DNA of 17,046 nucleotides from IMG/VR virus record IMGVR_UViG_2534682108_000005, positions 1 to 17,046 of that record; one strand, 5' to 3'. Shown here one piece after another: positions 71-11,855 of the stretch. The DNA is from a virus (taxonomy: Duplodnaviria; Heunggongvirae; Uroviricota; Caudoviricetes). The notes under the pieces were generated by a model that worked only from the letters and a program-made list of their open reading frames with translations, searched no databases and was not told where the DNA came from. Each line of letters opens with the position of its first letter. Position 1 is the first letter of the stretch. A program made the translations under genes and the position numbers.

Positions 71-709
71 TTACAAGTGTTTTTCTGGCGTTGCATTATA
101 AATTTTTTGCCAGTCTTCCAGGGTGAGTCTGGATCTGGTCACTTTAGGGATCGGTTTACGGGTAGCCTCCGGAGGATTCCATCCAGGAGGAACTTCTCCC
201 GCATGCTGTGCTTCTTTATAAATATCAACCCATAATCCGCGATTTACTCTTGCTGTGCTGACCATGTCTTTATCCATCCACTCGTCCAGTATTAATGCAA
301 AGTCTCTTACCTCCAGTTCTTTCAATGGGTGGTTTCCCAGGCGGGAAACCAGGTATGCAGCCATTCGCACTTTTTCTTTGTGGGTTGTAGCTGCAATGTC
401 TCCATTTTTCAGTCGCGACTCCTGTATTTTCAGATATCGATCAACCCATGCCTTTAATCTGATACCCCGACGTTTTGTTGCTGATGGACTTTCATCAATT
501 TTGCGCATGAAATATTCTGCTTCTGCTGCAGCTATTCGCTGATTGGCTGTTGAAGCGATTTTTTCTGCCTTACCTTTGTCTGTTCCGAGTCCGTGAAATT
601 TTCCAGTCACAGGATTTTTATACTGGTAGTAAACTCTGCCAGTTCTGCGATCAAACTTTTCGTAAAGACCGGCTACGTCAGTGCTGTTTTTTCGTGGCCT
701 CGGTGACAT
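71..709 (-). pseudogene. Truncated lambdoid tyrosine integrase: only the N-terminal arm-binding/core-binding portion (212 aa) is present; the catalytic domain is missing
   Basis: The ORF ends ...TRSRLTLEDWQKIYNATPEKHL then TAA at 71-73. This aligns with the lambda Int region RRSRLTADEYLKIYQAA that precedes the catalytic domain. Full-length lambdoid integrases are about 350-410 aa. The 70 bp to the window edge does not continue the frame. Confidence 0.65.
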
Positions 710-1008: not shown

Positions 1009-3480
1009 TTAAAAATCAGCCTGACTCGGGATCAGTTTTTGCCAGATAACTGAAACGTATTTTGCCTGGTAACGGGCGTCATCAAGTGCATTATGGCGCT
1101 CACCTTCGAATGGAATAGCCGTTCTGGCATCGAAGTCTATGGCTTTCCCCAGCTCAACGATTGTGCGTACATCGCGATCGTTGTAGTAACGCCACGGGCA
1201 GGGGATCCCCTGCCGTTCGTATGAACGGCGCAAAATCGTGTTGTCGAAGTTGGCTCCATTTCCCCAAACCTGAACAAAAAATTCACCGGAGTTTTCGTCG
1301 ATAAATTCCCGCAATTGTAACAGTGCATCATCTAACGGGATTTCATCGGTCATAATGGCAGATTGCGCTTCGCGTGATTGCTTAAGCCACCATTTAATGG
1401 TGTCCCGATCAATGACTCCGCCAGCAGTTTCCAGATTGATAGTCTTACTAAATTCCGGTCCCATATCTCCGGTTTGCGGATCGAAAAATATTGCACCTAT
1501 TGAGATGATCGGGGCATCAGGATTTTTTCCCATGGTTTCAAGGTCGATCATTAGATGGTCACACGTCCTGCTGGTGGATGTGATTTCGTGATGACCGTTC
1601 ATCTTAATTGGGTGATCTGCCGTCTCGCCAGTTTCATTATCGCTATTGTGATGCTGATTGCCGCCAGTGTTCTCCTTGTGTGGATGTTCAGTGCCTTCCA
1701 TTTCCTCCGGATCATCTTCCTGAACTTCAACCTGATACTCTTCATCGAATGTTTCCTGGTATGTTGCGTCGCCCATTACCGCGCCACAATCAGGGCAGTT
1801 ACCGCCGCCGGTCTGACCGCAGGCGGTGCAGACTTTTTCCACTTCCTGTTGCGCCACTGATTCAGGCTGTTTCGTTTCTGGCTCGTTTTGTAACGCATTT
1901 GGGCTGTTTTGTTCCGCTTTTTGGTAGTTCCGTTCCGATTCATGCTGGTTCTGGTTCACAGAATCGCGGGTCTGGATCCCCTTAACCCATTTCGGATCAT
2001 TCGGGTCACTAATCCCTTCAACAAATTCACCACGTGATGCAGCAAGCAACTTATCGGCGTCAGGCTGGATGATATTGGCTGCCTGCATAATTTTGTTTAC
2101 TTCGTCAGCGGTAACTTTTATCGGCTCTGGTTGTTCTGAATCTTCAGCGGTATCTACATTTTGCGGTAAGCCCGTGTATGTGCCATTTTTTCGGGCAAAA
2201 TATTCTTCTTTTGTGATTTCAGTGGCGCCAGCAGCCAGTGCCTTATCCAGACCAGAAAGTTTGTTTGCGCGACCGTATTTTTCTCCGTCCTTATCTGCGA
2301 AGAGGAAATAGAACGGCCCCTCACGCTCTACAGATGGTTCGACTTCCACTTTGCATTCGGTTTTTTCGTTGTCTGGAATTGCCGTTTCCACTGCATCAGT
2401 TTCTGGTACTGGCGACGAGAGAGTATCAGTTGCGCTCTGATTTGTTCCTTCATCTTCAAACACGCCCTTTGTAGTCAGGTATTCAGTAATGTATTTGTTC
2501 AGTGCCACAGGGTCTTTGTGAATGTCGATCGGACGTTCACGGACAAGGCCAAAAATAGTCTGGCGGTCGTAGCGAAGGGCATCAGGCTGTTTGCGCATTG
2601 ATGCCGAGATACGCTTCCAGTCTTCGCGGTCGTTGTCGATAACTTCATTTTTTGCCCAGCGATGGATGCTGCCGTCAATGTTTCCGGCATCCACATCACC
2701 AGGCCAGAGAGCGTAGGCCAGTTCGTCATCCAGTGTTTTCCATGTCTGCTTGTATTCGCGATGAATGGCAGCAATGACCGGGTTGATTTTTCCTGTTGAA
2801 TTTTCAGTGTGTTGTTGATTGGCTCTGGCGCGGGCGAGATCAACAACAGACGTGTATTTTCCGGCTTCCTTGCGTTCACCTTCGCGACGTTTTTTCCAGA
2901 TGCGCATCTCTGCCTGAATTTCGGGCCATTTGGCACCAGGCTTACATTTATGCTTAACCCACCCGATGGCATGCAGCTTAAGCTCCGGATACATAGCGTT
3001 AACTTCTGGCATTTTCATCAACGCTTCAACGATGTGGCCGTCGAATGTTGCCATGTCTTCCTGCAACAATTCCTGTGCGCTAATCACCATATCAACAGTG
3101 ATGTTTTCACATGTGTCGAACTTAACCATGACAGCGTTCTGTACTTCAGGGGCTAGGTTGTCAAAAGTGACGTTCATCGGATCGGATTCAGTCTCGACCG
3201 GGACAAAGGAAGCAGACGCCTCATCCCAGCGGTTTTCCTGCATATATTCAGCATCCCAGGAATCGAGGGCAGGGCGGGGTATACCGGGTTTATCCTCGCA
3301 AACAAGAAATTTATAAGCGCAGTCCTGAGCAGCCGGATAATGTTCCAGGAATTGCCAGTGAAATTTTGCGCGGGCGCGACGTTCATCACCGGCTTCAATG
3401 GCAGTGGCTACAGCGACGGCACCTTCTTCCTTTATTGCCTGTTCGTCCGGAATGGCGGCGCAAATAAAGACTTTACTCAT
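1009..3480 (-). CDS. Large phage exonuclease (823 aa) with a C-terminal DnaQ-like DEDDh 3'-5' exonuclease domain; the kind of protein usually annotated exodeoxyribonuclease VIII-like in lambdoid prophages
   Basis: Long uninterrupted ORF. The C-terminal ~180 aa carry exonuclease motifs (MIDLETMG, FDPQTGD, HNALDDARYQ). A CxxC...CxxC zinc-ribbon-like motif (CTACGQTGGGNCPDCG) sits in an acidic low-complexity middle region. Position between xis and the dicB-like operon fits a recombination module. Confidence 0.8.
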   Translation of the reverse strand: MSKVFICAAIPDEQAIKEEGAVAVATAIEAGDERRARAKFHWQFLEHYPAAQDCAYKFLVCEDKPGIPRPALDSWDAEYMQENRWDEASASFVPVETESDPMNVTFDNLAPEVQNAVMVKFDTCENITVDMVISAQELLQEDMATFDGHIVEALMKMPEVNAMYPELKLHAIGWVKHKCKPGAKWPEIQAEMRIWKKRREGERKEAGKYTSVVDLARARANQQHTENSTGKINPVIAAIHREYKQTWKTLDDELAYALWPGDVDAGNIDGSIHRWAKNEVIDNDREDWKRISASMRKQPDALRYDRQTIFGLVRERPIDIHKDPVALNKYITEYLTTKGVFEDEGTNQSATDTLSSPVPETDAVETAIPDNEKTECKVEVEPSVEREGPFYFLFADKDGEKYGRANKLSGLDKALAAGATEITKEEYFARKNGTYTGLPQNVDTAEDSEQPEPIKVTADEVNKIMQAANIIQPDADKLLAASRGEFVEGISDPNDPKWVKGIQTRDSVNQNQHESERNYQKAEQNSPNALQNEPETKQPESVAQQEVEKVCTACGQTGGGNCPDCGAVMGDATYQETFDEEYQVEVQEDDPEEMEGTEHPHKENTGGNQHHNSDNETGETADHPIKMNGHHEITSTSRTCDHLMIDLETMGKNPDAPIISIGAIFFDPQTGDMGPEFSKTINLETAGGVIDRDTIKWWLKQSREAQSAIMTDEIPLDDALLQLREFIDENSGEFFVQVWGNGANFDNTILRRSYERQGIPCPWRYYNDRDVRTIVELGKAIDFDARTAIPFEGERHNALDDARYQAKYVSVIWQKLIPSQADF

Positions 3481-3572
3481 TTTGTTTTACCTCATTACAG
3501 ATTTAAGGGTGAACAAATCCCTGCCATTGCTGGCATATAAGAATGAAATCGGATGTTTATTACGGAACTGTT

Positions 3573-3764
3573 TTAAAGACCTGCCGGGATTTCGTTATTA
3601 TCCTGGTGAATAACTTTATCGACCGGGTAACAGTTACCGGGAATTTTCTGTTCGGTTGCTGCAGTCACACACTCCTGCATTGTCCTGTGAACACTGACTG
3701 CAGTATCAACTGGCTCTCCGGAAACAAGAAAAACTGTCAGAACAAGTGCAAATGCTGTATTCAT
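3573..3764 (-). CDS. ydfD: Small hydrophobic N-terminus protein (63 aa), YdfD-like by size and synteny
   Basis: Start at MNTAFALVLTVFLVSG with an AAGGA Shine-Dalgarno 8 nt upstream. Its ATG overlaps the stop of the upstream gene (ATGA). Size and position after the dicB-like gene match Qin ydfD as I recall it; not verified by alignment. Confidence 0.5.
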   Translation of the reverse strand: MNTAFALVLTVFLVSGEPVDTAVSVHRTMQECVTAATEQKIPGNCYPVDKVIHQDNNEIPAGL

Positions 3765-3949
3765 TGCCAGCATCCTTTTTGTATCGGACGTAAACGGGCC
3801 AACATTGAAAGAATGCATATTTTATTTAATAGCTCCCGTTCGTGTTTTCTCTTGTTAATGGCATCTTCAGTAAATACAGGGTTACTGATAGTGACACCAA
3901 TTTCAAAACAACCTTCAGACGTATTAACGTTTGGTAATAACGTTTCCAT
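3761..3949 (-). CDS. dicB: DicB-like cell-division inhibitor (62 aa)
   Basis: 62-aa ORF (METLLPNVNTSEGCFEIG...) with a GAGGA SD 7 nt upstream, lying immediately downstream of the DicF sequence on the same strand and translationally coupled to the next gene. Size and synteny match Qin dicB. Confidence 0.55.
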   Translation of the reverse strand: METLLPNVNTSEGCFEIGVTISNPVFTEDAINKRKHERELLNKICILSMLARLRPIQKGCWQ

Positions 3950-4118
3950 TATCGCGTCCTCAACAATGAATTTTGTGATGCGGTGCCTGGTGCCTCCAGG
4001 TGACGTTAACCAGTTAACAATTAACGCCGGATACAGAGAATCCACCCATAACACTGTTTTTGGTTTTAACTGTTCCGCGTGCGCTTAGCCGCATTCACCG
4101 CATCACAAAATTCACTTT

Positions 4119-4176
4119 AAAAAGGGCGGCAGAGCAGTCACGGAGTAAAACTGATACCGCCAAACGTCACCAGAAA
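4119..4176 (-). ncRNA. dicF: DicF small RNA (ftsZ-targeting antisense sRNA of Qin-type prophages) with its intrinsic terminator
   Basis: Minus-strand sequence UUUCUGGUGACGUUUGGCGGUAUCAGUUUUACUCCGUGACUGCUCUGCCGCCCUUUUU matches the DicF sequence as I recall it, including the 3' GC-rich stem and U-run. It sits between the ydfC-like and dicB-like genes as in Qin. Confidence 0.8.
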
Positions 4177-4517
4177 ATTGATAACAGAGGGCGTTGCAGC
4201 GGGATTGTCACTTAAGCGTATGGTCAACCTGACAACCCGGTGTCCTCAACGGGGGAAGGAATAACCCCGCCATACTTACCGCCGCGCCATTTCGCGGATT
4301 GCCACAACCGGAAGCGCACGGTCGACGAAAATTTAACGACAGGCTATCTATGAACCAGCTACCTCGCCGTGCGCTTTCGCGTTATGGTCTGACTTTTCAG
4401 GGAAATATCCTTTCAGTAAACTGTCAGTGCCGGATGCTCACCCGTGTCCGGCGCACGCACTCCACCTCACCCGTGGAGAACTCCTTAATTACCAACCTTA
4501 GCTTCGTTGGTTAGCTA

Positions 4518-4736
4518 TTAACGCGGGTATGTAATCATTCTGGCAATGCTTAATGCCGCTGCTTTTTCCAGATTGGTGATATCCTGCTCCAGAGCGGACA
4601 GATTTTCAGCCTGCTTAGCCCTGGCTTCATTGGCCCATTTCAAATCCTGCGCTGCATTAATTTTCTGGCGCATCCACTCATAAAGTTCATCATTGGTATA
4701 GTCTGGCGCGATGATGACGGGTTCTCGTTTCTGCAT
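4518..4736 (-). CDS. ydfC: Small protein (72 aa), YdfC-like by size and synteny
   Basis: 72-aa ORF third in the leftward small-gene operon, upstream of dicF. Size matches Qin ydfC. No catalytic motif recognised. Confidence 0.5.
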   Translation of the reverse strand: MQKREPVIIAPDYTNDELYEWMRQKINAAQDLKWANEARAKQAENLSALEQDITNLEKAAALSIARMITYPR

Positions 4737-4765
4737 ACTGATTCCTCGCGGTGCTGTTTCGCTTA

Positions 4766-4894
4766 TCAGCCGTTAGATTTTGCCGAACTGGAAAGCGCCT
4801 GTTTAAATTCGTTGAAGCTGAGAGCTTCTTCGCCTTCGGCAAGACCTTCGAAGTATTCTTCGTAAGCCTTTTCCATGATAGTGTCGAAATCCAT
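4766..4894 (-). CDS. ydfB: Small acidic protein (42 aa), YdfB-like by size and synteny
   Basis: Not in the ORF track because it is under 60 aa. Manual translation gives MDFDTIMEKAYEEYFEGLAEGEEALSFNEFKQALSSSAKSNG. An AGGTGA SD lies 5 nt upstream of the ATG at 4894; stop TGA at 4766-4768. Size matches Qin ydfB. Confidence 0.45.
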   Translation of the reverse strand: MDFDTIMEKAYEEYFEGLAEGEEALSFNEFKQALSSSAKSNG

Positions 4895-4895
4895 A

Positions 4896-5132
4896 TCACT
4901 CACCTGAGTTTCTTTCCAGCCAGCGACGGGCACCATTTTCGGTTTTAAACGTTTTGCTTTTGGTATACGTCATCGCGGTGAACGTACCGTCCTGGTTGGG
5001 GAACACGCCACATACCAGAGATTCGCTGTTGCCAAGATCGATAGTATCCATGCTGACATCATTTCCCCTTAACGCCGGGGTAGCGGAACAAAAACCTGCT
5101 GCATAGTTATTAAAGTTGAACCCTGCCGTCAT
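4896..5132 (-). CDS. ydfA: Small protein, YdfA-like; 78 aa from the ATG at 5132, or 51 aa from the internal ATG at 5051
   Basis: First gene of the leftward operon downstream of the terminator and operator site. The longer form has a GAGG SD about 9 nt upstream; the internal start gives the 51 aa I recall for Qin ydfA. Start not resolved. Confidence 0.45.
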   Translation of the reverse strand: MTAGFNFNNYAAGFCSATPALRGNDVSMDTIDLGNSESLVCGVFPNQDGTFTAMTYTKSKTFKTENGARRWLERNSGE

Positions 5133-5258
5133 GTTCTTACGCCTCGGGCTGGCTACTTAACCCCTGACCACTGCCGGGTAACTCGAAGTATTGCCTGGCG
5201 TTCTGTGGGGCGGGGTGGGTTGATGAATGAACAATACCACTACTATTTAATTATGTAA

Positions 5259-5271
5259 ATAGCAATGCTAT
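5259..5271. promoter_or_regulatory. Operator-like palindrome ATAGCAaTGCTAT in the promoter region of the leftward ydfA-dicB-like operon
   Basis: Two 6-bp inverted arms (ATAGCA/TGCTAT) around a central A, inside an AT-rich putative promoter between the terminator and the first operon gene. Near-identical sites occur in the repressor/cro intergenic region. Confidence 0.5.
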
Positions 5272-5282
5272 TATCGTAGCAA

Positions 5283-5306
5283 GAAAAAAACCACCCGAAG
5301 GTGGTT
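5283..5306 (-). terminator. Rho-independent terminator ending the repressor/toxin-antitoxin transcript
   Basis: On the minus strand: stem ACCACC, loop of 4 nt, stem GGTGGT, followed by a run of 8 U, 15 bp downstream of the ParE-like stop. Confidence 0.65.
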
Positions 5307-5320
5307 GTTGACAGGAAGGA

Positions 5321-5611
5321 TTAACAGGTTTTGTTTGGATACTGTCTTCGTGAGTGAACTACATTTACGATCTCGATGTTAGATGCTGTTACTCGGTAAA
5401 GTATTATATAGTTAGGATGAGTCACTATCTCACGAAGACTTGGAACTCTTTCGCTCGGTGGGTACAGATAAGGGTGTTCAGTAAGTGACAAAACTGATGT
5501 TTCAATGCGTATTTTTAGTCTACGTGCAGCGGGAGGGTTTTCCTTAGCAATATAGGCTACGATCTGACGTAAATCATCACGTGCAGAAGGTAGCCATAAA
5601 ATGGGCAGCAT
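5321..5611 (-). CDS. parE: ParE/RelE-superfamily toxin (96 aa) of a type II toxin-antitoxin module
   Basis: Size, basic C-terminus and overall pattern (...HPNYIILYRVTASNIEIVNVVHSRRQYP) resemble ParE toxins. Its start overlaps the stop of the upstream small gene by 1 nt, the typical antitoxin-toxin arrangement. Confidence 0.7.
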   Translation of the reverse strand: MLPILWLPSARDDLRQIVAYIAKENPPAARRLKIRIETSVLSLTEHPYLYPPSERVPSLREIVTHPNYIILYRVTASNIEIVNVVHSRRQYPNKTC

Positions 5612-5802
5612 TACTCACTCCTGTTCGTTGCAGCTAATTGAGCAATAAGGTTTTCCATTTCAGCCATTACTTCGTCATGTGGAATTGCAGGACGGGGATC
5701 TGAGAGGCTTGCTGCCACTTTGGCTCGCAACCATTCGTTATAGCTGTTTTCTTGTTCGACTGTTTCAAATTCAGAAATTATCGGGGAAAGGGCTGTACTC
5801 AT
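5611..5802 (-). CDS. Antitoxin (63 aa) cognate to the ParE-like toxin; PaaA-like
   Basis: Small acidic protein (MSTALSPIISEFETVEQENSYNEWLRAKVAASLSDPRP...) directly upstream of and coupled to the toxin gene. It resembles, from memory, PaaA-type antitoxins of the three-component paaR-paaA-parE systems of E. coli O157 prophages. Confidence 0.6.
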   Translation of the reverse strand: MSTALSPIISEFETVEQENSYNEWLRAKVAASLSDPRPAIPHDEVMAEMENLIAQLAATNRSE

Positions 5803-5819
5803 GTTTTGACCTCCTCAGA

Positions 5820-6320
5820 TTAGGCGCGACGACCCTTTTGCGCAGCTAGCCATCGCGCAACGATTTCTTCAATTGATTCTTTTTTCTCCTTCATTTCCTT
5901 AAGCATTTTCTCTTTATCTTCTTTGGGGAAAGCCCTGAACGTCTGGAGCAAATCCCGCTCCATGGGGTCTATATTAAACGGAAGTTCGTTTTCCGATTGT
6001 TCCATATCTGCAGATATAGTGACAACATTGTCCTCCCCAGATTCTTGGGGATACATCCTTACAATTTGTAACAACTCGGCCATATCTGGTCTGATTGACT
6101 CGGGAGGAACTTGCAGCAACCCTGCGAACTTGATAACAGCCTCAAGATTTAAAGGTGTCTGACCATTTAGATAATGGCTTACAGCTCCCTGTGTCGAAAA
6201 TCCCAGAATTTCTGCCGCACGCTCTTGGGTTAATCCTAGTTGATTTTTTTTCGCCGTCCAGATTTCTTTCAGTCTCTGGGCGGCTTGCAGGTCGATCTCT
6301 GACAGGGATTTTCTTTTCAT
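5820..6320 (-). CDS. XRE-family HTH repressor (166 aa) at the immunity position; DicA/PaaR-like, lacking an S24 peptidase domain
   Basis: N-terminal HTH (LTQERAAEILGFSTQGAVSHYLNG) and a charged helical C-terminus (KEDKEKMLKEMKEKKESIEEIVARWL), architecture like DicA. Divergent from the Cro-like gene, and directly upstream (18 bp) of the antitoxin-toxin pair on the same strand. Confidence 0.75.
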   Translation of the reverse strand: MKRKSLSEIDLQAAQRLKEIWTAKKNQLGLTQERAAEILGFSTQGAVSHYLNGQTPLNLEAVIKFAGLLQVPPESIRPDMAELLQIVRMYPQESGEDNVVTISADMEQSENELPFNIDPMERDLLQTFRAFPKEDKEKMLKEMKEKKESIEEIVARWLAAQKGRRA

Positions 6321-6427
6321 ACCTTCAATTCTAATAAGATTATTAATCTCTTTGAAATAGTAATGCTATTTACTTTTAAAAATAACAATGATATTAATGA
6401 TCGTGATGACATCACATGAGGTGAACA
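6321..6427. promoter_or_regulatory. Divergent immunity promoter/operator region with several palindromes
   Basis: AT-rich 107-bp intergenic region containing TAATAAgaTTATTA (6333-6346), ATAGTAaTGCTAT (6357-6369), ATAACAaTGATAT (6382-6394) and GTGATGaCATCAC (6403-6415). The GAGGTGA SD for the Cro-like gene is at 6418-6424. Confidence 0.6.
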
Positions 6428-6703
6428 ATGAATCTTGGAGAATATTTGCATCATTCCGGTATAACTCAGAAGCATTTTGCTGAAATTGTTGGGGTAACCC
6501 AGGGGATGGTAAGCCATGTCATTACCGGACGGGCGAAACTTACGGGGGAAAAAATTTTACGTTGGTGCGAAGCAACAGGCTGGATAGTAACTCCGCACGA
6601 GATTGATAGCAGTACTTATCCCAACCCAACCGACGGCTTACCTGTCGAGTTTCAGGCTAACACACAACCAGAGGCGGGGGTGATTCATGAAAATCAAGCA
6701 TGA
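6428..6703 (+). CDS. Cro-like small HTH regulator (91 aa), YdaS/DicC-type
   Basis: Divergent from the repressor. HTH signature KHFAEIVGVTQGMVSHVITGRAKLT; strong SD; overlaps the start of the next gene. Confidence 0.65.
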   Translation: MNLGEYLHHSGITQKHFAEIVGVTQGMVSHVITGRAKLTGEKILRWCEATGWIVTPHEIDSSTYPNPTDGLPVEFQANTQPEAGVIHENQA

Positions 6704-7112
6704 ACACATCCGCATGGCGATGAATGCGTGGGCATATCCTGACGGTGAGAAGGTGCCAGCTGCTGCTATTGCCAGAGCGTATTTTGAACTGGGGATGACA
6801 TATCCCGAGTTGCACAACGACGACAGGCACAACGCGCTCTATCTCAACACCCAAAAGATTTTCCGTTGGCTGGATAAAGACACTCCTGATGCTGTTGAGA
6901 AAATTCAGGCATTGTTACCGGCGATCGAAAGGGCAATGCCACCTCCGCTGGTAGCCCGAATGCGCAGCCACAGTTCCGCTTATTTTCGGGAGCTGGTGGA
7001 GACGCAGGAACGGCTAGTGAAAGATATCGATGATTTCGTTGCATCAGCGATCGTTCTGTTCGACCAGATGAATCGTGGTGGTCCGGCGGGTAATTCCGTG
7101 GCTGTGCATTGA
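6687..7112 (+). CDS. YdaT-like protein (141 aa), in the CII-like position downstream of cro
   Basis: The N-terminus MKIKHEHI and the ~140 aa length match what I recall for Rac YdaT. Position immediately after the Cro-like gene. Function assigned by position only. Confidence 0.5.
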   Translation: MKIKHEHIRMAMNAWAYPDGEKVPAAAIARAYFELGMTYPELHNDDRHNALYLNTQKIFRWLDKDTPDAVEKIQALLPAIERAMPPPLVARMRSHSSAYFRELVETQERLVKDIDDFVASAIVLFDQMNRGGPAGNSVAVH

Positions 7113-10221: not shown

Positions 10222-10995
10222 TTATATGCTGAAATGAGTAATACTATTCCAGAGTGCAGCAGCGAAAGTCTCCTGATGATTGAGTTCTGGAAATTGTACG
10301 ACAGAAAAATTACTATATTTTTCTGCTAAAATATTTTTCAAAACAGATTCTGCTTTAATGGCTTCAGGATATAAAGATGTGGAGTAATCAAGGCTAAGAT
10401 CTCCGCTAAGTAAGCATATACTTTTAGTATGCTTTGATTCTGGCATGTCATTTTTTATGATCTTGATGATTCTTTCATCCTGCCATAGAAGTGATGGTGC
10501 TGAGATATAATAATAGTTAAAACATGAATTATTTTTTAAACAATCAAGAACAAAAATAGCACCTAGTGAGTGTCCCCATATACCGAGTTTTGAGGATGTC
10601 GGAACAATGGTGCTGACCCAGGGCATGATCTGAGTTAGCAATAATTCTCGGAAACTCTGACTTCCTCCACCAGTGAAGTAGATCCATGCTGGTTTGGAGT
10701 TATCAATAATAGCATTTTCACCACCAGGAGTGTAATCGTAAGCACGGCGGTGAATATTAAGCTTATCCAAAGATTCGTAACTCAGTGTAACTAACACTGG
10801 TGGATTGGGTAGTGCATCAATAACAGGAAGAATATCAGAAATGTTATTGTTGGCGCTATTTCCATCAAGTATATAAAGAGTTGTATTATTTTTTTTAATG
10901 TTTTTTGGAGTAAAAACGCATATTTTATATTTTGTGTCATAGTTAATTGAGTTAAATATGCGTGTTTGACAATGAATGTCCATGTGTTTAGTCAT
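10222..10995 (-). CDS. Alpha/beta-hydrolase serine esterase (257 aa) in an AT-rich island; cargo gene on the opposite strand
   Basis: GHSLG nucleophile-elbow motif (G-x-S-x-G) in LGIWGHSLGAIFVLDCL, consistent with the esterase D/Fes-like fold. No signal peptide seen. GGGGAG SD upstream. Markedly lower GC than flanking phage genes. Confidence 0.7.
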   Translation of the reverse strand: MTKHMDIHCQTRIFNSINYDTKYKICVFTPKNIKKNNTTLYILDGNSANNNISDILPVIDALPNPPVLVTLSYESLDKLNIHRRAYDYTPGGENAIIDNSKPAWIYFTGGGSQSFRELLLTQIMPWVSTIVPTSSKLGIWGHSLGAIFVLDCLKNNSCFNYYYISAPSLLWQDERIIKIIKNDMPESKHTKSICLLSGDLSLDYSTSLYPEAIKAESVLKNILAEKYSNFSVVQFPELNHQETFAAALWNSITHFSI

Positions 10996-11121: not shown

Positions 11122-11699
11122 AAAGGTACATCGTTACTGTTTTACTTGTCAATACATTTGATATTGATTCTCGTTCGCATCGTTTGTTCAGGGATTTGAA
11201 GACAGATAACTGCTATGTCAATGAACCAACCCACAGTCCAACGTACTTCAGCAAAATATGGCGTCGGGATATAGCACCCTGATATTCACCACGGCAAACA
11301 CACGCCGAGAGTGTTTTTTTATCGTCGTATGTACGTGCACATCTGAATAATGGCAGGCGAATGTGATAGCCGAAAAGCTCACCGTGCGGTGATCCGGTAG
11401 TTTCACCCTGTACGTCTCATAACCCGATGATTGAGACCTTAAGCAAAACAATAACAAGGGAGCGTCATTATGACCACTCAAACTGATTTCATATTGGCGA
11501 TGTAATGGGAAGTTAAGTAGAATGGCAGCGGGTGCTTGAGGCTATCTGTCTCAGGCATGAACACCAAAAGGCAGATAGAGAAAAGCCCCAGTTAACATTG
11601 CGCGTCCGGCAAGACGCTTAACATTAATCTGAGGCCATATCTATGCTCTACACACGTAGGTTAGCCTCTTACGTGCCGAAAGGCAAGGAGAAGCAGGCT

Positions 11700-11855
11700 A
11701 TGAAGCAGCAAAAGGCGATGCTAATCGCCCTGATCGTCATCTGTTTAACCGTCATTGTGACGGCACTGGTAACGAGGAAAGACCTCTGCGAGGTATGAAT
11801 CCGAACCGGCCAGACGGAGGTCGCTGTCTTCACAGTCTACGAACCTGAGGAGTAA
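11700..11855 (+). pseudogene. hokD: hok/gef-family type I toxin gene (HokD/RelF-like) interrupted by an in-frame TGA at codon 33
   Basis: Translation MKQQKAMLIALIVICLTVIVTALVTRKDLCEV, then TGA at 11796-11798, then in frame IRTGQTEVAVFTVYEPEE and TAA at 11853-11855. This matches HokD as I recall it, with the stop where Arg is expected. AGGAG SD 9 nt upstream. Structured leader (CTATCTG...CAGATAG) upstream and a 3' stem-loop at 11862-11884. Confidence 0.7.

What the first reader, a model, noticed from the sequence alone, without database searches (positions are those of the whole stretch)
5321..6320. ParE-type toxin-antitoxin pair placed directly downstream of the prophage immunity repressor
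The DicA-like HTH repressor sits divergent from cro in the immunity position. It is followed 18 bp later, on the same strand, by a 63-aa antitoxin and an overlapping 96-aa ParE-like toxin, then a strong terminator. Only then comes the dicB-like operon with its own operator. The arrangement resembles the three-component paaR-paaA-parE systems, and suggests that the repressor both maintains lysogeny and regulates the toxin-antitoxin pair. That would couple prophage retention or abortive infection to repressor levels.
Basis: partly seen in the sequence, partly recalled or inferred. Interest (0 to 1): 0.55.

Follow-up and report, generated by a model that had tools for sequence, protein, structure and literature searches.

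The report
Prophage repressor–PaaA–ParE toxin-antitoxin operon

Summary
On the minus strand lie a 166-aa HTH repressor (5820-6320), a 63-aa PaaA-family antitoxin (5611-5802) after a 17-nt gap with a Shine-Dalgarno sequence, and a 96-aa ParE toxin (5321-5611) overlapping it by one base. An intrinsic terminator follows (5289-5306), then a PL-like promoter with two operator copies in front of ydfA-ydfB-ydfC-DicF-dicB.

There PaaR2 is the CI analogue, YdaS is Cro, YdaT is CII, and the TA pair sits in the rexAB slot.

The window's TA pair is 83% and 88% identical to the second O157:H7 locus, presumably PaaA1/ParE1, and about 65-71% identical to PaaA2/ParE2.

What differs is the repressor. It shares only its last ~45-50 residues with PaaR1/PaaR2. 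Its DNA-binding domain is a lambda-CI-type N-terminal domain, with its own operators (AATAG-N5-CTATT) and its own Cro. So it is a third immunity type.

This type occurs in 72 of 5426 complete E. coli genomes. All three genes are under purifying selection. Verdict: a new member of a known kind, of low to moderate interest.

The parts
5321..5611 (-). ParE-family toxin, 96 aa (ParE1-like)
   Evidence: Pfam PF05016 E 6.6e-18. PDB ParE2 5cw7_B E 5e-36 over residues 1-92. 81/92 identical to the toxin of the second O157:H7 locus and 60/92 to ParE2. dN/dS 0.04-0.05.
5611..5802 (-). PaaA-family antitoxin, 63 aa, with no DNA-binding domain
   Evidence: Pfam PF21217 PaaA2 E 1.1e-22. PDB 3zbe PaaA2 E 5e-23. 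52/63 identical to the O157:H7 L010 antitoxin and 40/56 to PaaA2. One-base overlap with the toxin start, TAATG. dN/dS 0.07-0.12 against relatives with the same or the PaaR1-like repressor type, 0.23 against PaaA2.
5803..5819 (-). 17-nt spacer between the repressor stop and the antitoxin start; holds the Shine-Dalgarno sequence GAGGAGG
   Evidence: Sequence read. No promoter-like or terminator-like site was called in it.
5820..5984 (-). Repressor C-terminal domain (residues ~113-166) plus stop codon: PaaR/DicA-type helical module
   Evidence: 24/44 identical to PaaR2, E 3e-16. 41/87 identical to the PaaR1-like protein, E 8e-23. 27% identical to the DicA C-terminus, E 2e-5. The AF2 model gives helices 119-130 and 133-165. 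DNA homology to the PaaR1-type locus runs up to 5950.
5985..6050 (-). Repressor inter-domain linker (residues ~91-112)
   Evidence: pLDDT below 50 for residues 91-112. In 244-255-aa relatives a whole second HTH domain is inserted here.
6051..6320 (-). Repressor N-terminal DNA-binding domain (residues 1-90): lambda-CI-type five-helix HTH with N-terminal arm
   Evidence: phmmer hits lambda CI N-terminal domains at E ~1e-9. Foldseek best match is lambda cI NTD 3kz3_A, TM 0.93, rmsd 1.1 A, 39% identity. No similarity to PaaR1 or PaaR2 in this part.
6328..6356 (-). PRM-like promoter: -35 TTCAAA, 17-nt spacer, -10 TAGAAT. The -10 ends 7 nt before the A of the repressor ATG, which is leaderless geometry.
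   Evidence: Promoter scan. PaaR2, shown experimentally to be leaderless (PMC8630535), and the PaaR1-like locus both have a -10 hexamer 6 nt before the ATG, against 7 nt in the window and the S. sonnei relative.
6337..6349 (.). Extra palindrome AGATTATTAATCT between the -35 and -10 of the PRM-like promoter; role unknown, a possible third operator or Cro site
   Evidence: Read from the sequence. The relatives have GATTGCTAATC at the same place.
6356..6395 (.). OR-like operator pair: AATAGTAATGCTATT (6356-6370) and AATAACAATGATATT (6381-6395)
   Evidence: Motif search. The half-sites AATAG/CTATT are conserved in relatives whose repressor is 77% identical.
6369..6397 (+). PR-like promoter: TTTACT, 17-nt spacer, TATTAA, for ydaS-ydaT. 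Inferred.
   Evidence: Below the scan's threshold. Inferred because it aligns base for base with the PL-side promoter.
6428..6703 (+). YdaS-type Cro analogue, 91 aa
   Evidence: HTH_3 E 3.7e-6. The N-terminal HTH is unrelated at DNA level to the PaaR1- and PaaR2-type loci; the C-terminal third is shared with the PaaR1-type YdaS.
6680..6697 (+). YdaT (CII-analogue) box GTGATTcatgaaAATCAA, straddling the ydaT start codon
   Evidence: One mismatch to the published TTGATT-N6-AATCAA (PMC9986795). The same box sits at the same place in all six related loci compared.
6687..7112 (+). YdaT, CII analogue, 141 aa
   Evidence: Pfam YdaT_toxin E 3.8e-9. 115/141 identical to the YdaT encoded next to PaaR2 in phage Evi.
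5279..5306 (-). Intrinsic terminator ending the repressor-paaA-parE transcript
   Evidence: conserved in relatives.
5231..5272 (-). PL-like promoter (TTTACA, 17-nt spacer, TG-TATTGT) overlapped by the OL-like operator pair (5258-5272 exact match; 5233-5247 with 3 mismatches)
3573..5051 (-). Leftward early operon ydfA-ydfB-ydfC-DicF-dicB-ydfD, downstream of the PL-like promoter
   Evidence: Annotation of the 99.97%-identical genome region. DicF found by Rfam at 4124-4175. 95.9% identical to K-12 Qin over 3302-5089.

Best explanation
The region is the immunity region of an E. coli lambdoid (Qin/CP-933-type) prophage. It carries a member of the paaR-paaA-parE three-gene toxin-antitoxin family.

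The 166-aa repressor is the CI analogue. It has a lambda-CI-type N-terminal DNA-binding domain, a disordered linker and a PaaR/DicA-type C-terminal helical domain, presumably for oligomerisation. It has no S24 self-cleavage domain.

I infer the following mechanism.
- The repressor is transcribed, probably without a leader, from a PRM-like promoter.
- It is co-transcribed with paaA and parE up to the terminator at 5289-5306.
- It binds the AATAG-N5-CTATT palindromes at OR (6356-6395) and OL (5233-5272).
- That binding shuts off PR (ydaS/cro, ydaT/cII, replication genes) and PL (ydfABC-DicF-dicB).
- YdaS competes for the OR sites, and YdaT acts at its box at 6680-6697.

By homology, PaaA neutralises ParE by direct binding and is the labile partner. 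Cells that lose this part of the prophage are then poisoned, which makes the pair an addiction module.

Shown here: the homologies, the architecture, the operator repeats, the terminator, and purifying selection. Inferred from the O157:H7 homologues: co-transcription, leaderless start, repressor-operator binding, toxicity and addiction.
For: Family hits.

Same gene order and flanks as both O157:H7-type loci. Toxin 81/92 and antitoxin 52/63 identical to the L010 locus.

Repressor: C-terminal domain homologous to PaaR2 (E 3e-16) and to the PaaR1-like protein (E 8e-23). N-terminal domain matches lambda cI NTD by sequence and by model.

Operator motif: four sites in two equally spaced pairs, reached by 0 of 200 shuffles. 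The PL and PR sides are superimposable. Half-sites are conserved in relatives.

The -10 TAGAAT lies 7 nt from the ATG; PaaR2, which is experimentally leaderless, has its -10 6 nt from the ATG (PMC8630535).

The gap is 17 nt with only a Shine-Dalgarno sequence, and the toxin start overlaps the antitoxin stop as TAATG. Terminator. YdaT box at the homologous position; PMC9986795.

dN/dS is 0.04-0.12 for the three genes against relatives with the same or the PaaR1-like repressor type (0.23 for the antitoxin against PaaA2).

The TA pair follows this repressor type in at least 70 of the 72 E. coli genomes that carry it, and in its 77%-identical relatives.

Published experiments on the homologue show an operon, PaaR2 repression, bistability and plasmid stabilisation (PMC8630535; PMC4803016 citing Hallez 2010).
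Against: Nothing here is experimental for this allele.

The promoter-like calls are no more numerous than in shuffled sequence: 4 found, 3.9 expected. Promoter assignments therefore rest on position and on analogy.

The PR-like promoter is below the scan threshold.

The second OL site has 3 mismatches in the window.

PaaA-ParE pairs elsewhere in Proteobacteria work without any PaaR-like gene, so dependence of the TA pair on the repressor is not a given.

In the homologue, the TA operon was transcribed in both switch states, and the PaaA-ParE complex itself repressed partially (PMC8630535; PMC4803016).
Confidence: 0.85

Rival explanations
1. The TA pair is an autonomous two-gene module that merely landed next to the repressor. 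It has its own promoter inside the repressor gene and regulates itself through the PaaA-ParE complex. The repressor is not its regulator in any meaningful sense.
For: 69 of 80 PaaA-ParE loci from other bacteria have the PaaA-like antitoxin, and 0 of 80 have a PaaR-like gene upstream. There is a weak promoter-like site at 6025-5996 inside the repressor gene. In the homologue the PaaA-ParE complex partly represses and the TA is transcribed in both switch states (PMC4803016; PMC8630535).
Against: The gap is 17 nt with only a Shine-Dalgarno sequence and no terminator. The internal promoter-like hit is at chance level. Co-transcription from the paaR promoter, and the need for PaaR for full repression, are reported for the homologues (PMC4803016 citing Hallez 2010). 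The TA pair follows this repressor type in at least 70 of the 72 E. coli genomes that carry it.
Confidence: 0.15
2. The pair's main role is phage exclusion or abortive infection, like rexAB in the same slot of lambda, rather than prophage addiction. ParE would be released when an infecting phage disturbs PaaA synthesis or stability.
For: It occupies the rexAB position (PMC9986795). A Salmonella relative of the repressor carries HigB-HigA in the same slot, so the slot collects TA cargo. TA systems are known defence elements (general knowledge).
Against: None of the three proteins hits PADLOC. No phage-defence phenotype is reported for PaaA-ParE in the papers read. The demonstrated phenotype of the homologue is post-segregational killing (PMC8630535).
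Confidence: 0.2
3. The repressor is simply a DicA orthologue controlling the dicB division-inhibitor operon of a Qin-like remnant, with no lysogeny-switch role.
For: The ydfA-dicB block is 95.9% identical to Qin. The repressor's C-terminus resembles that of DicA.
Against: The NCBIfam DicA model scores 31 bits against a cutoff of 101, on residues 107-162 only. The DNA-binding domain is lambda-CI-like. Complete cro/cII-analogue and replication genes lie to the right, with matching operators on both sides.
Confidence: 0.05
4. The three genes are decaying remnants of a dead prophage and have no function.
For: In the closest genome the prophage integrase is interrupted by an IS66 element.
Against: All the ORFs are intact. 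dN/dS is 0.04-0.12 with near-saturated synonymous divergence. Operators and terminator are conserved.
Confidence: 0.03

Closest known systems
paaR1-paaA1-parE1 of E. coli O157:H7 cryptic prophage CP-933M (Hallez et al. 2010, as cited in PMC8630535 and PMC4803016). Taken here to be locus L010, the O157:H7 locus that is not PaaR2-type.
   Same: Gene order and flanks are identical: ydaT-ydaS divergent from R-A-E, then ydfA..dicB. Toxin 81/92, antitoxin 52/63 and YdaT 120/141 identical. Repressor C-terminal ~45 residues, the -10-to-ATG leaderless geometry and the YdaT box are shared. DNA homology runs up to repressor codon ~124 and resumes in the last third of ydaS.
   Different: Repressor residues 1-~120 are unrelated: a lambda-CI-type domain here against a different HTH in the 133-aa protein. 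The operators differ (AATAG-N5-CTATT here; ACAGTTTTTTATTGT-type repeats there). The HTH part of YdaS differs. That L010 equals CP-933M is my inference, by elimination and from the neighbouring 'ECs1072 family' gene.
paaR2-paaA2-parE2 of CP-933P / Sp12 (Jurenas et al. 2021, PMC8630535; structures 5cw7, 3zbe); also present in phage Evi (LR597642)
   Same: Same architecture and the same regulatory logic. It is the experimentally characterised reference. Repressor C-terminal domain 24/44 identical. YdaT 115/141 identical.
   Different: Toxin only 60/92 and antitoxin 40/56 identical, and the antitoxin C-terminal tail differs. PaaA1 and PaaA2 are reported not to cross-neutralise (PMC4803016), so this pair probably is not interchangeable with PaaA2-ParE2. 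The DNA-binding domain, operators (GTTTAGTG-type) and YdaS are unrelated; there is no DNA similarity over 5892-6680.
Bacteriophage lambda cI-rexA-rexB with OR/OL
   Same: The repressor N-terminal domain is a true homologue (35-39% identity, rmsd 1.1-1.5 A), including the basic N-terminal arm. The leaderless geometry, paired operators at both early promoters and accessory genes co-transcribed downstream of the repressor are also shared.
   Different: There is no S24 peptidase or dimerisation domain, so no RecA-stimulated self-cleavage is expected. The C-terminus is the PaaR/DicA helical module. The cargo is a type II TA pair instead of rexAB. The Cro and CII analogues are YdaS and YdaT.
DicA-DicC-dicB region of K-12 cryptic prophage Qin
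   Same: The ydfABC-DicF-dicB-ydfD operon is 95.9% identical. The repressor sits in the same position and has a distantly related C-terminal module.
   Different: Qin has no TA pair between dicA and ydfA. The DNA-binding domains show no detectable similarity.
Canonical parDE (RK2, Vibrio cholerae ParD2-ParE2)
   Same: The toxin has the ParE fold.
   Different: The antitoxin is PaaA, which has no RHH DNA-binding domain. Regulation is handed to a separate repressor. The target of the PaaA-associated ParE toxins is reported as still unresolved (PMC8630535).

Membership tests
paaR-paaA-parE three-component TA | ParE-family toxin homologous to ParE1/ParE2 | tested here: met
   PF05016 E 6.6e-18; 5cw7_B E 5e-36; 88% and 65% identity.
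paaR-paaA-parE three-component TA | PaaA-family antitoxin without a DNA-binding domain, immediately upstream of the toxin | tested here: met
   PF21217 E 1.1e-22; 3zbe E 5e-23; one-base overlap with the toxin.
paaR-paaA-parE three-component TA | HTH regulator gene directly upstream on the same strand, with no intervening terminator | tested here: met
   17-nt gap holding only a Shine-Dalgarno sequence.
paaR-paaA-parE three-component TA | Regulator homologous to PaaR1/PaaR2 in its C-terminal domain | tested here: met
   E 3e-16 to PaaR2 and E 8e-23 to the PaaR1-like protein, over the last 44-87 residues.
paaR-paaA-parE three-component TA | Regulator homologous to PaaR1/PaaR2 in its DNA-binding domain | tested here: not met
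   No alignment for residues 1-~90. PaaR1-like and PaaR2 do align with each other over residues 37-133 and 28-123. This is an immunity-specificity difference, and I do not treat it as excluding membership.
paaR-paaA-parE three-component TA | Located in a lambdoid immunity region, divergent from ydaS-ydaT | tested here: met
paaR-paaA-parE three-component TA | All three genes transcribed as one operon and repressed by the regulator | not testable with these tools
   Needs RNA end mapping and reporter assays. The geometry is consistent.
paaR-paaA-parE three-component TA | Toxin is toxic, the antitoxin neutralises it, and the locus is addictive | not testable with these tools
   Only indirect support: intact ORFs and dN/dS 0.04-0.12.
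Lambda CI-type repressor | Five-helix HTH N-terminal domain with N-terminal arm | tested here: met
   phmmer E ~1e-9; AF2 model with pLDDT ~90 over residues ~11-80; Foldseek TM 0.93, rmsd 1.1 A to 3kz3_A.
Lambda CI-type repressor | C-terminal S24 (LexA-like) self-cleaving domain | tested here: not met
   No Peptidase_S24 hit. The C-terminus consists of two helices. A distant relative, P0031, does combine this N-terminal domain with S24.
Lambda CI-type repressor | Leaderless mRNA from PRM | tested here: inconclusive
   The -10 TAGAAT ends 7 nt before the ATG. The spacing is conserved in the S. sonnei relative, while the would-be Shine-Dalgarno bases are not. The transcription start site is not mapped.
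DicA | Full-length match to the DicA family model | tested here: not met
   NCBIfam NF007257 scores 31.2 bits against a cutoff of 101, on residues 107-162 only. BLASTP gives 27% identity over 51 residues.
Canonical ParD-ParE | ParD (RHH) antitoxin that binds the operator | tested here: not met
   The antitoxin is PaaA-family and has no DNA-binding domain hit.
Known anti-phage defence systems (PADLOC) | Any component matching a defence-system model | tested here: not met
   No hits for any of the three proteins.

The most novel reading that the evidence does not exclude
The unit [PaaR-type C-terminal domain + paaA + parE] may be kept intact while the DNA-binding domain, the operators and cro are exchanged. 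There are three immunity types, and the junctions fall in the repressor linker (~5950 against the PaaR1 type, ~5891 against the PaaR2 type) and at ydaS/ydaT. Under this reading the TA pair polices recombination inside the immunity region: it allows only swaps that retain it, as Jurenas et al. speculated. Alternatively it acts as a rex-like exclusion system. Either way the 'third component' would not be part of the TA system at all. It would be a phage repressor that the TA pair has parasitised. This fits the finding that 0 of 80 PaaA-ParE loci outside enterobacterial prophages have such a gene.
Probability: 0.2. Interest if true: 0.5.

Novelty: new member of a known kind. Interest (0 to 1): 0.25.

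Why it matters
It gives a third, naturally heteroimmune version of the paaR-paaA-parE module, and its repressor DNA-binding domain is a recognisable lambda-CI homologue.

With PaaR1 and PaaR2 that makes a natural trio for three tests:
- whether the repressor's only link to the TA pair is transcriptional;
- whether the shared C-terminal domain is just the oligomerisation module;
- whether the TA pair constrains immunity-region recombination.

It also shows that PaaA-ParE is otherwise a widespread two-gene module, so 'three-component TA' describes a genomic context rather than an obligatory architecture.

None of this overturns current understanding.

Tried and rejected
- PADLOC scan of the three proteins gave no hits.
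- The phage collection holds only one relative, phage Evi, by DNA or by tblastn. It is PaaR2-type.
- The PDB sequence search found no PaaR or DicA chain, so the C-terminal domain could not be matched to a solved structure.
- I looked for a PaaR-like regulator upstream of 80 PaaA-ParE loci from other species and found none. Ten candidate upstream ORFs, inspected by eye, are not HTH regulators. I did not run Pfam on them.
- Literature search by RefSeq protein accession found nothing.
I reran it without them.
- Two internal consensus hits inside the repressor gene, a promoter-like site at 6025-5996 and a terminator-like site at 5995-5979, were considered as a separating promoter and terminator. 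I set them aside: the promoter count equals the shuffle expectation, and the hairpin has a 5-bp stem without a T-run.
- I rejected the 78-aa ORF 4896-5132 as the ydfA product, in favour of the annotated 51-aa YdfA at 4896-5051.
Full report
OBSERVATION.

Read on the minus strand, the repressor stop is followed by TCTGAGGAGGTCAAAAC and then the antitoxin ATG. The antitoxin stop and toxin start overlap as TAATG.

Fourteen nucleotides after the toxin stop lies a hairpin, AACCACC-TTCG-GGTGGTT, followed by a T-run. It folds at -10.4 kcal/mol, z = -2.75.

Pfam assigns ParE_toxin (E 6.6e-18), PaaA2 (E 1.1e-22) and HTH_3 (E 9.9e-10). The divergent genes are an HTH_3 protein (6428-6703) and a YdaT-family protein (6687-7112).

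WHERE IT COMES FROM.

The window is 99.97% identical over 15.4 kb to a lambdoid prophage next to potC in E. coli O157:H16.

The annotated order there is: exonuclease, ydfD, dicB, ydfC, ydfB, ydfA, toxin, antitoxin, HTH protein, then divergently HTH protein, YdaT, DnaT-like/O, P.

Window 3302-5089 is 95.9% identical to the ydfA-ydfE block of K-12 Qin. Rfam finds DicF at 4124-4175.

WHAT THE PROTEINS ARE.

The toxin matches the solved ParE2 of E. coli O157 (5cw7_B, E 5e-36, residues 1-92). The antitoxin matches PaaA2 (3zbe, E 5e-23).

E. coli O157:H7 genomes carry two such loci. One is the PaaR2 type, with a 123-aa regulator starting MQKKE as published; it is also present in phage Evi and in ATCC 25922. 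The other has a 133-aa regulator (L010).

The window's pair is much closer to that second locus: toxin 81/92 and antitoxin 52/63, against 60/92 and 40/56 for ParE2/PaaA2.

PMC8630535 says the homologue of paaR2-paaA2-parE2 in the same strain lies on CP-933M. I therefore take L010 to be paaR1-paaA1-parE1. This is an inference by elimination, supported by the adjacent 'ECs1072 family' gene.

THE REPRESSOR IS A DOMAIN CHIMERA RELATIVE TO PaaR.

It aligns with PaaR2 only over its last 44 residues (55% identity, E 3e-16). It aligns with the PaaR1-like protein over its last ~87 residues (E 8e-23). By contrast, PaaR1-like and PaaR2 align with each other over most of their length.

The N-terminal 90 residues match lambda CI N-terminal domains (E ~1e-9).

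An AlphaFold model built on 20 homologues gives five confident helices for residues 8-89. The linker 91-112 is disordered. Two C-terminal helices follow, at 119-130 and 133-165. The best structural matches are lambda cI NTD structures (TM 0.93, rmsd 1.1 A, 35-39% identity).

There is no S24 peptidase domain.

The NCBIfam DicA model scores 31 bits against a cutoff of 101.

Database relatives show that this N-terminal domain is combined with different partners:
- the PaaR-type C-terminus, in the 166-aa proteins of E. coli, Shigella and E. albertii;
- a whole PaaR1-like protein, in 244-255-aa double-HTH proteins;
- a DicA-like C-terminus, in 147-154-aa proteins;
- an S24 peptidase, in P0031.

REGULATORY DNA.

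The 15-bp palindrome AATAGCAWTGCTATT occurs four times within 3 mismatches. Two sites lie between the repressor and ydaS (6356, 6381). Two lie just beyond the terminator (5233, 5258). Each pair is spaced 25 bp. None of 200 shuffles reached four sites.

The two regions superimpose when one is reverse-complemented. Each has a promoter-like element across the operator pair: TTTACA-17-TATTGT leftward at 5259-5231, and TTTACT-17-TATTAA rightward at 6369-6397. The rightward one is my reading and falls below the scan threshold.

The half-sites AATAG/CTATT are conserved in loci whose repressor is only 77% identical, while the central bases vary.

A leftward TTCAAA-17-TAGAAT ends 7 nt before the repressor ATG. 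PaaR2, whose transcript was shown by 5' RACE to start at the ATG, has GATAAT 6 nt before its ATG. The PaaR1-like locus has TAAAAT 6 nt before its ATG. The S. sonnei relative keeps TAGAAT and the 7-nt spacing but changes the GAAGG bases. This favours a leaderless mRNA, as for lambda cI, but it is not proof.

The published YdaT operator TTGATT-N6-AATCAA (PMC9986795) is present with one mismatch at 6680-6697, straddling the ydaT start. It sits at the identical place in all six related loci.

MOSAIC STRUCTURE.

Against the PaaR2-type locus, DNA similarity holds over 5062-5891 (71%) and from 6681 onward (83%). There is none in between.

Against the PaaR1-type locus, similarity runs to 5950 (repressor codon ~124) and resumes at 6613, in the last third of ydaS.

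The unique segment is therefore a classical immunity cassette: the repressor DNA-binding domain, the operators and the Cro HTH. The repressor C-terminal domain, paaA and parE belong to the conserved left arm. That left arm is itself diverged (71-80% DNA identity), so this is an old lineage and not a recent swap.

DISTRIBUTION AND SELECTION.

- The repressor gene is in 72 of 5426 complete E. coli genomes.
- In at least 70 of them the full repressor-TA segment is covered. The most divergent members also carry the pair.
- The PaaR2-type locus is in 633 genomes.
- Some PaaA-ParE DNA homologue is in 842 genomes, with up to three per genome.
- dN/dS is 0.04-0.12 for repressor, antitoxin and toxin against relatives with the same or the PaaR1-like repressor type, with near-saturated dS; the antitoxin against PaaA2 gives 0.23.

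Outside this group, 80 ParE relatives from other Proteobacteria were fetched. Sixty-nine have a PaaA-like antitoxin directly upstream. None has a PaaR-like gene before it.

A Salmonella relative of the repressor carries HigB-HigA in the same downstream slot. The double-HTH relatives carry no TA pair there.

COMPARISON WITH WHAT IS KNOWN.

The tripartite paaR-paaA-parE system was described by Hallez et al. 2010, summarised in PMC4803016:
- the three genes are co-transcribed from a sigma-70 promoter upstream of paaR;
- full repression needs PaaR;
- the PaaA-ParE complex represses partially;
- PaaA1 and PaaA2 do not cross-neutralise.

Jurenas et al. 2021 (PMC8630535) added the following:
- the locus lies in the immunity region of CP-933P;
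- PaaR2 is a leaderless CI analogue that binds OR-like and OL-like operators;
- YdaS and YdaT are Cro and CII analogues;
- the switch is bistable;
- the locus stabilises a mini-F plasmid;
- ParE2 is not activated by either transcriptional state.

PMC9986795 states that paaA2-parE2 replaces rexAB and PaaR2 replaces CI.

VERDICT.

This is a genuine and apparently functional member of a known family. Its one feature of note is the lambda-CI-type DNA-binding domain with its own operators and Cro. That makes it a third immunity type, which I could not find described.

Novelty: new member of a known kind. Interest: 0.25.

Noticed in passing
L007 and L008, 3001-4339 (Salmonella enterica subsp. diarizonae and a related assembly): A 154-aa relative of the window's repressor (50% identity, same N-terminal domain, DicA-like C-terminus) is followed 147 bp downstream by HigB-HigA instead of PaaA-ParE. 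The slot downstream of this repressor family takes different TA cargo.
   Followed up: partly
L004-L006, 3001-3768 (Logan assemblies): These loci encode 244-255-aa repressors made of the window-type lambda-CI-like domain fused to an entire PaaR1-like protein, giving two HTH domains plus the shared C-terminus. No TA pair lies downstream; a Rha/ASH antirepressor and KilR lie there instead.
   Followed up: partly
L013-L092 (80 loci from GTDB species genomes): PaaA-ParE is a widespread two-gene module in Alpha-, Beta- and Gammaproteobacteria (54-72% toxin identity), with no PaaR-like gene upstream in any locus. How these antitoxins, which lack a DNA-binding domain, are regulated there is unclear.
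   Followed up: partly
window 6337-6349: A 13-bp palindrome, AGATTATTAATCT, lies between the -35 and -10 of the PRM-like promoter. It is unlike the main operator motif. Relatives have GATTGCTAATC at the same place. It may be a third operator or a YdaS site.
   Followed up: no
window 4124-4175 (-): A DicF sRNA gene (Rfam 76.7 bits) lies between ydfC and dicB, as in Qin.
   Followed up: no
window 11530-11798 (+): A hok/sok type I toxin-antitoxin locus: sok RNA at 116 bits and a Hok/Gef CDS in the matching genome annotation. It is a second addiction-type module in the same prophage.
   Followed up: no
window 15956-16205 (+) and 16315-16512 (+): A prophage-borne tRNA cluster (Met-CAT, Arg-TCG, Arg-TCT) is followed by an STnc100 sRNA match.
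   Followed up: no
window 71-709 (-); L001 635-4460: The prophage integrase is only an N-terminal fragment at the window's left end. In the closest genome it is split by an IS66-family element (ISCro1), so the prophage is probably excision-defective.
   Followed up: no
window 10222-10995 (-): An alpha/beta hydrolase gene lies on the opposite strand amid the rightward early and replication genes. It looks like a moron (annotation of the matching genome).
   Followed up: no
window 6025-5979 (-): A weak promoter-like site (TTGTCA-18-AACAAT) and a weak hairpin lie inside the repressor linker codons. Both are at chance level, but the site could provide repressor-independent TA transcription, which would fit the constitutive TA expression seen for the homologue (PMC8630535).
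   Followed up: no
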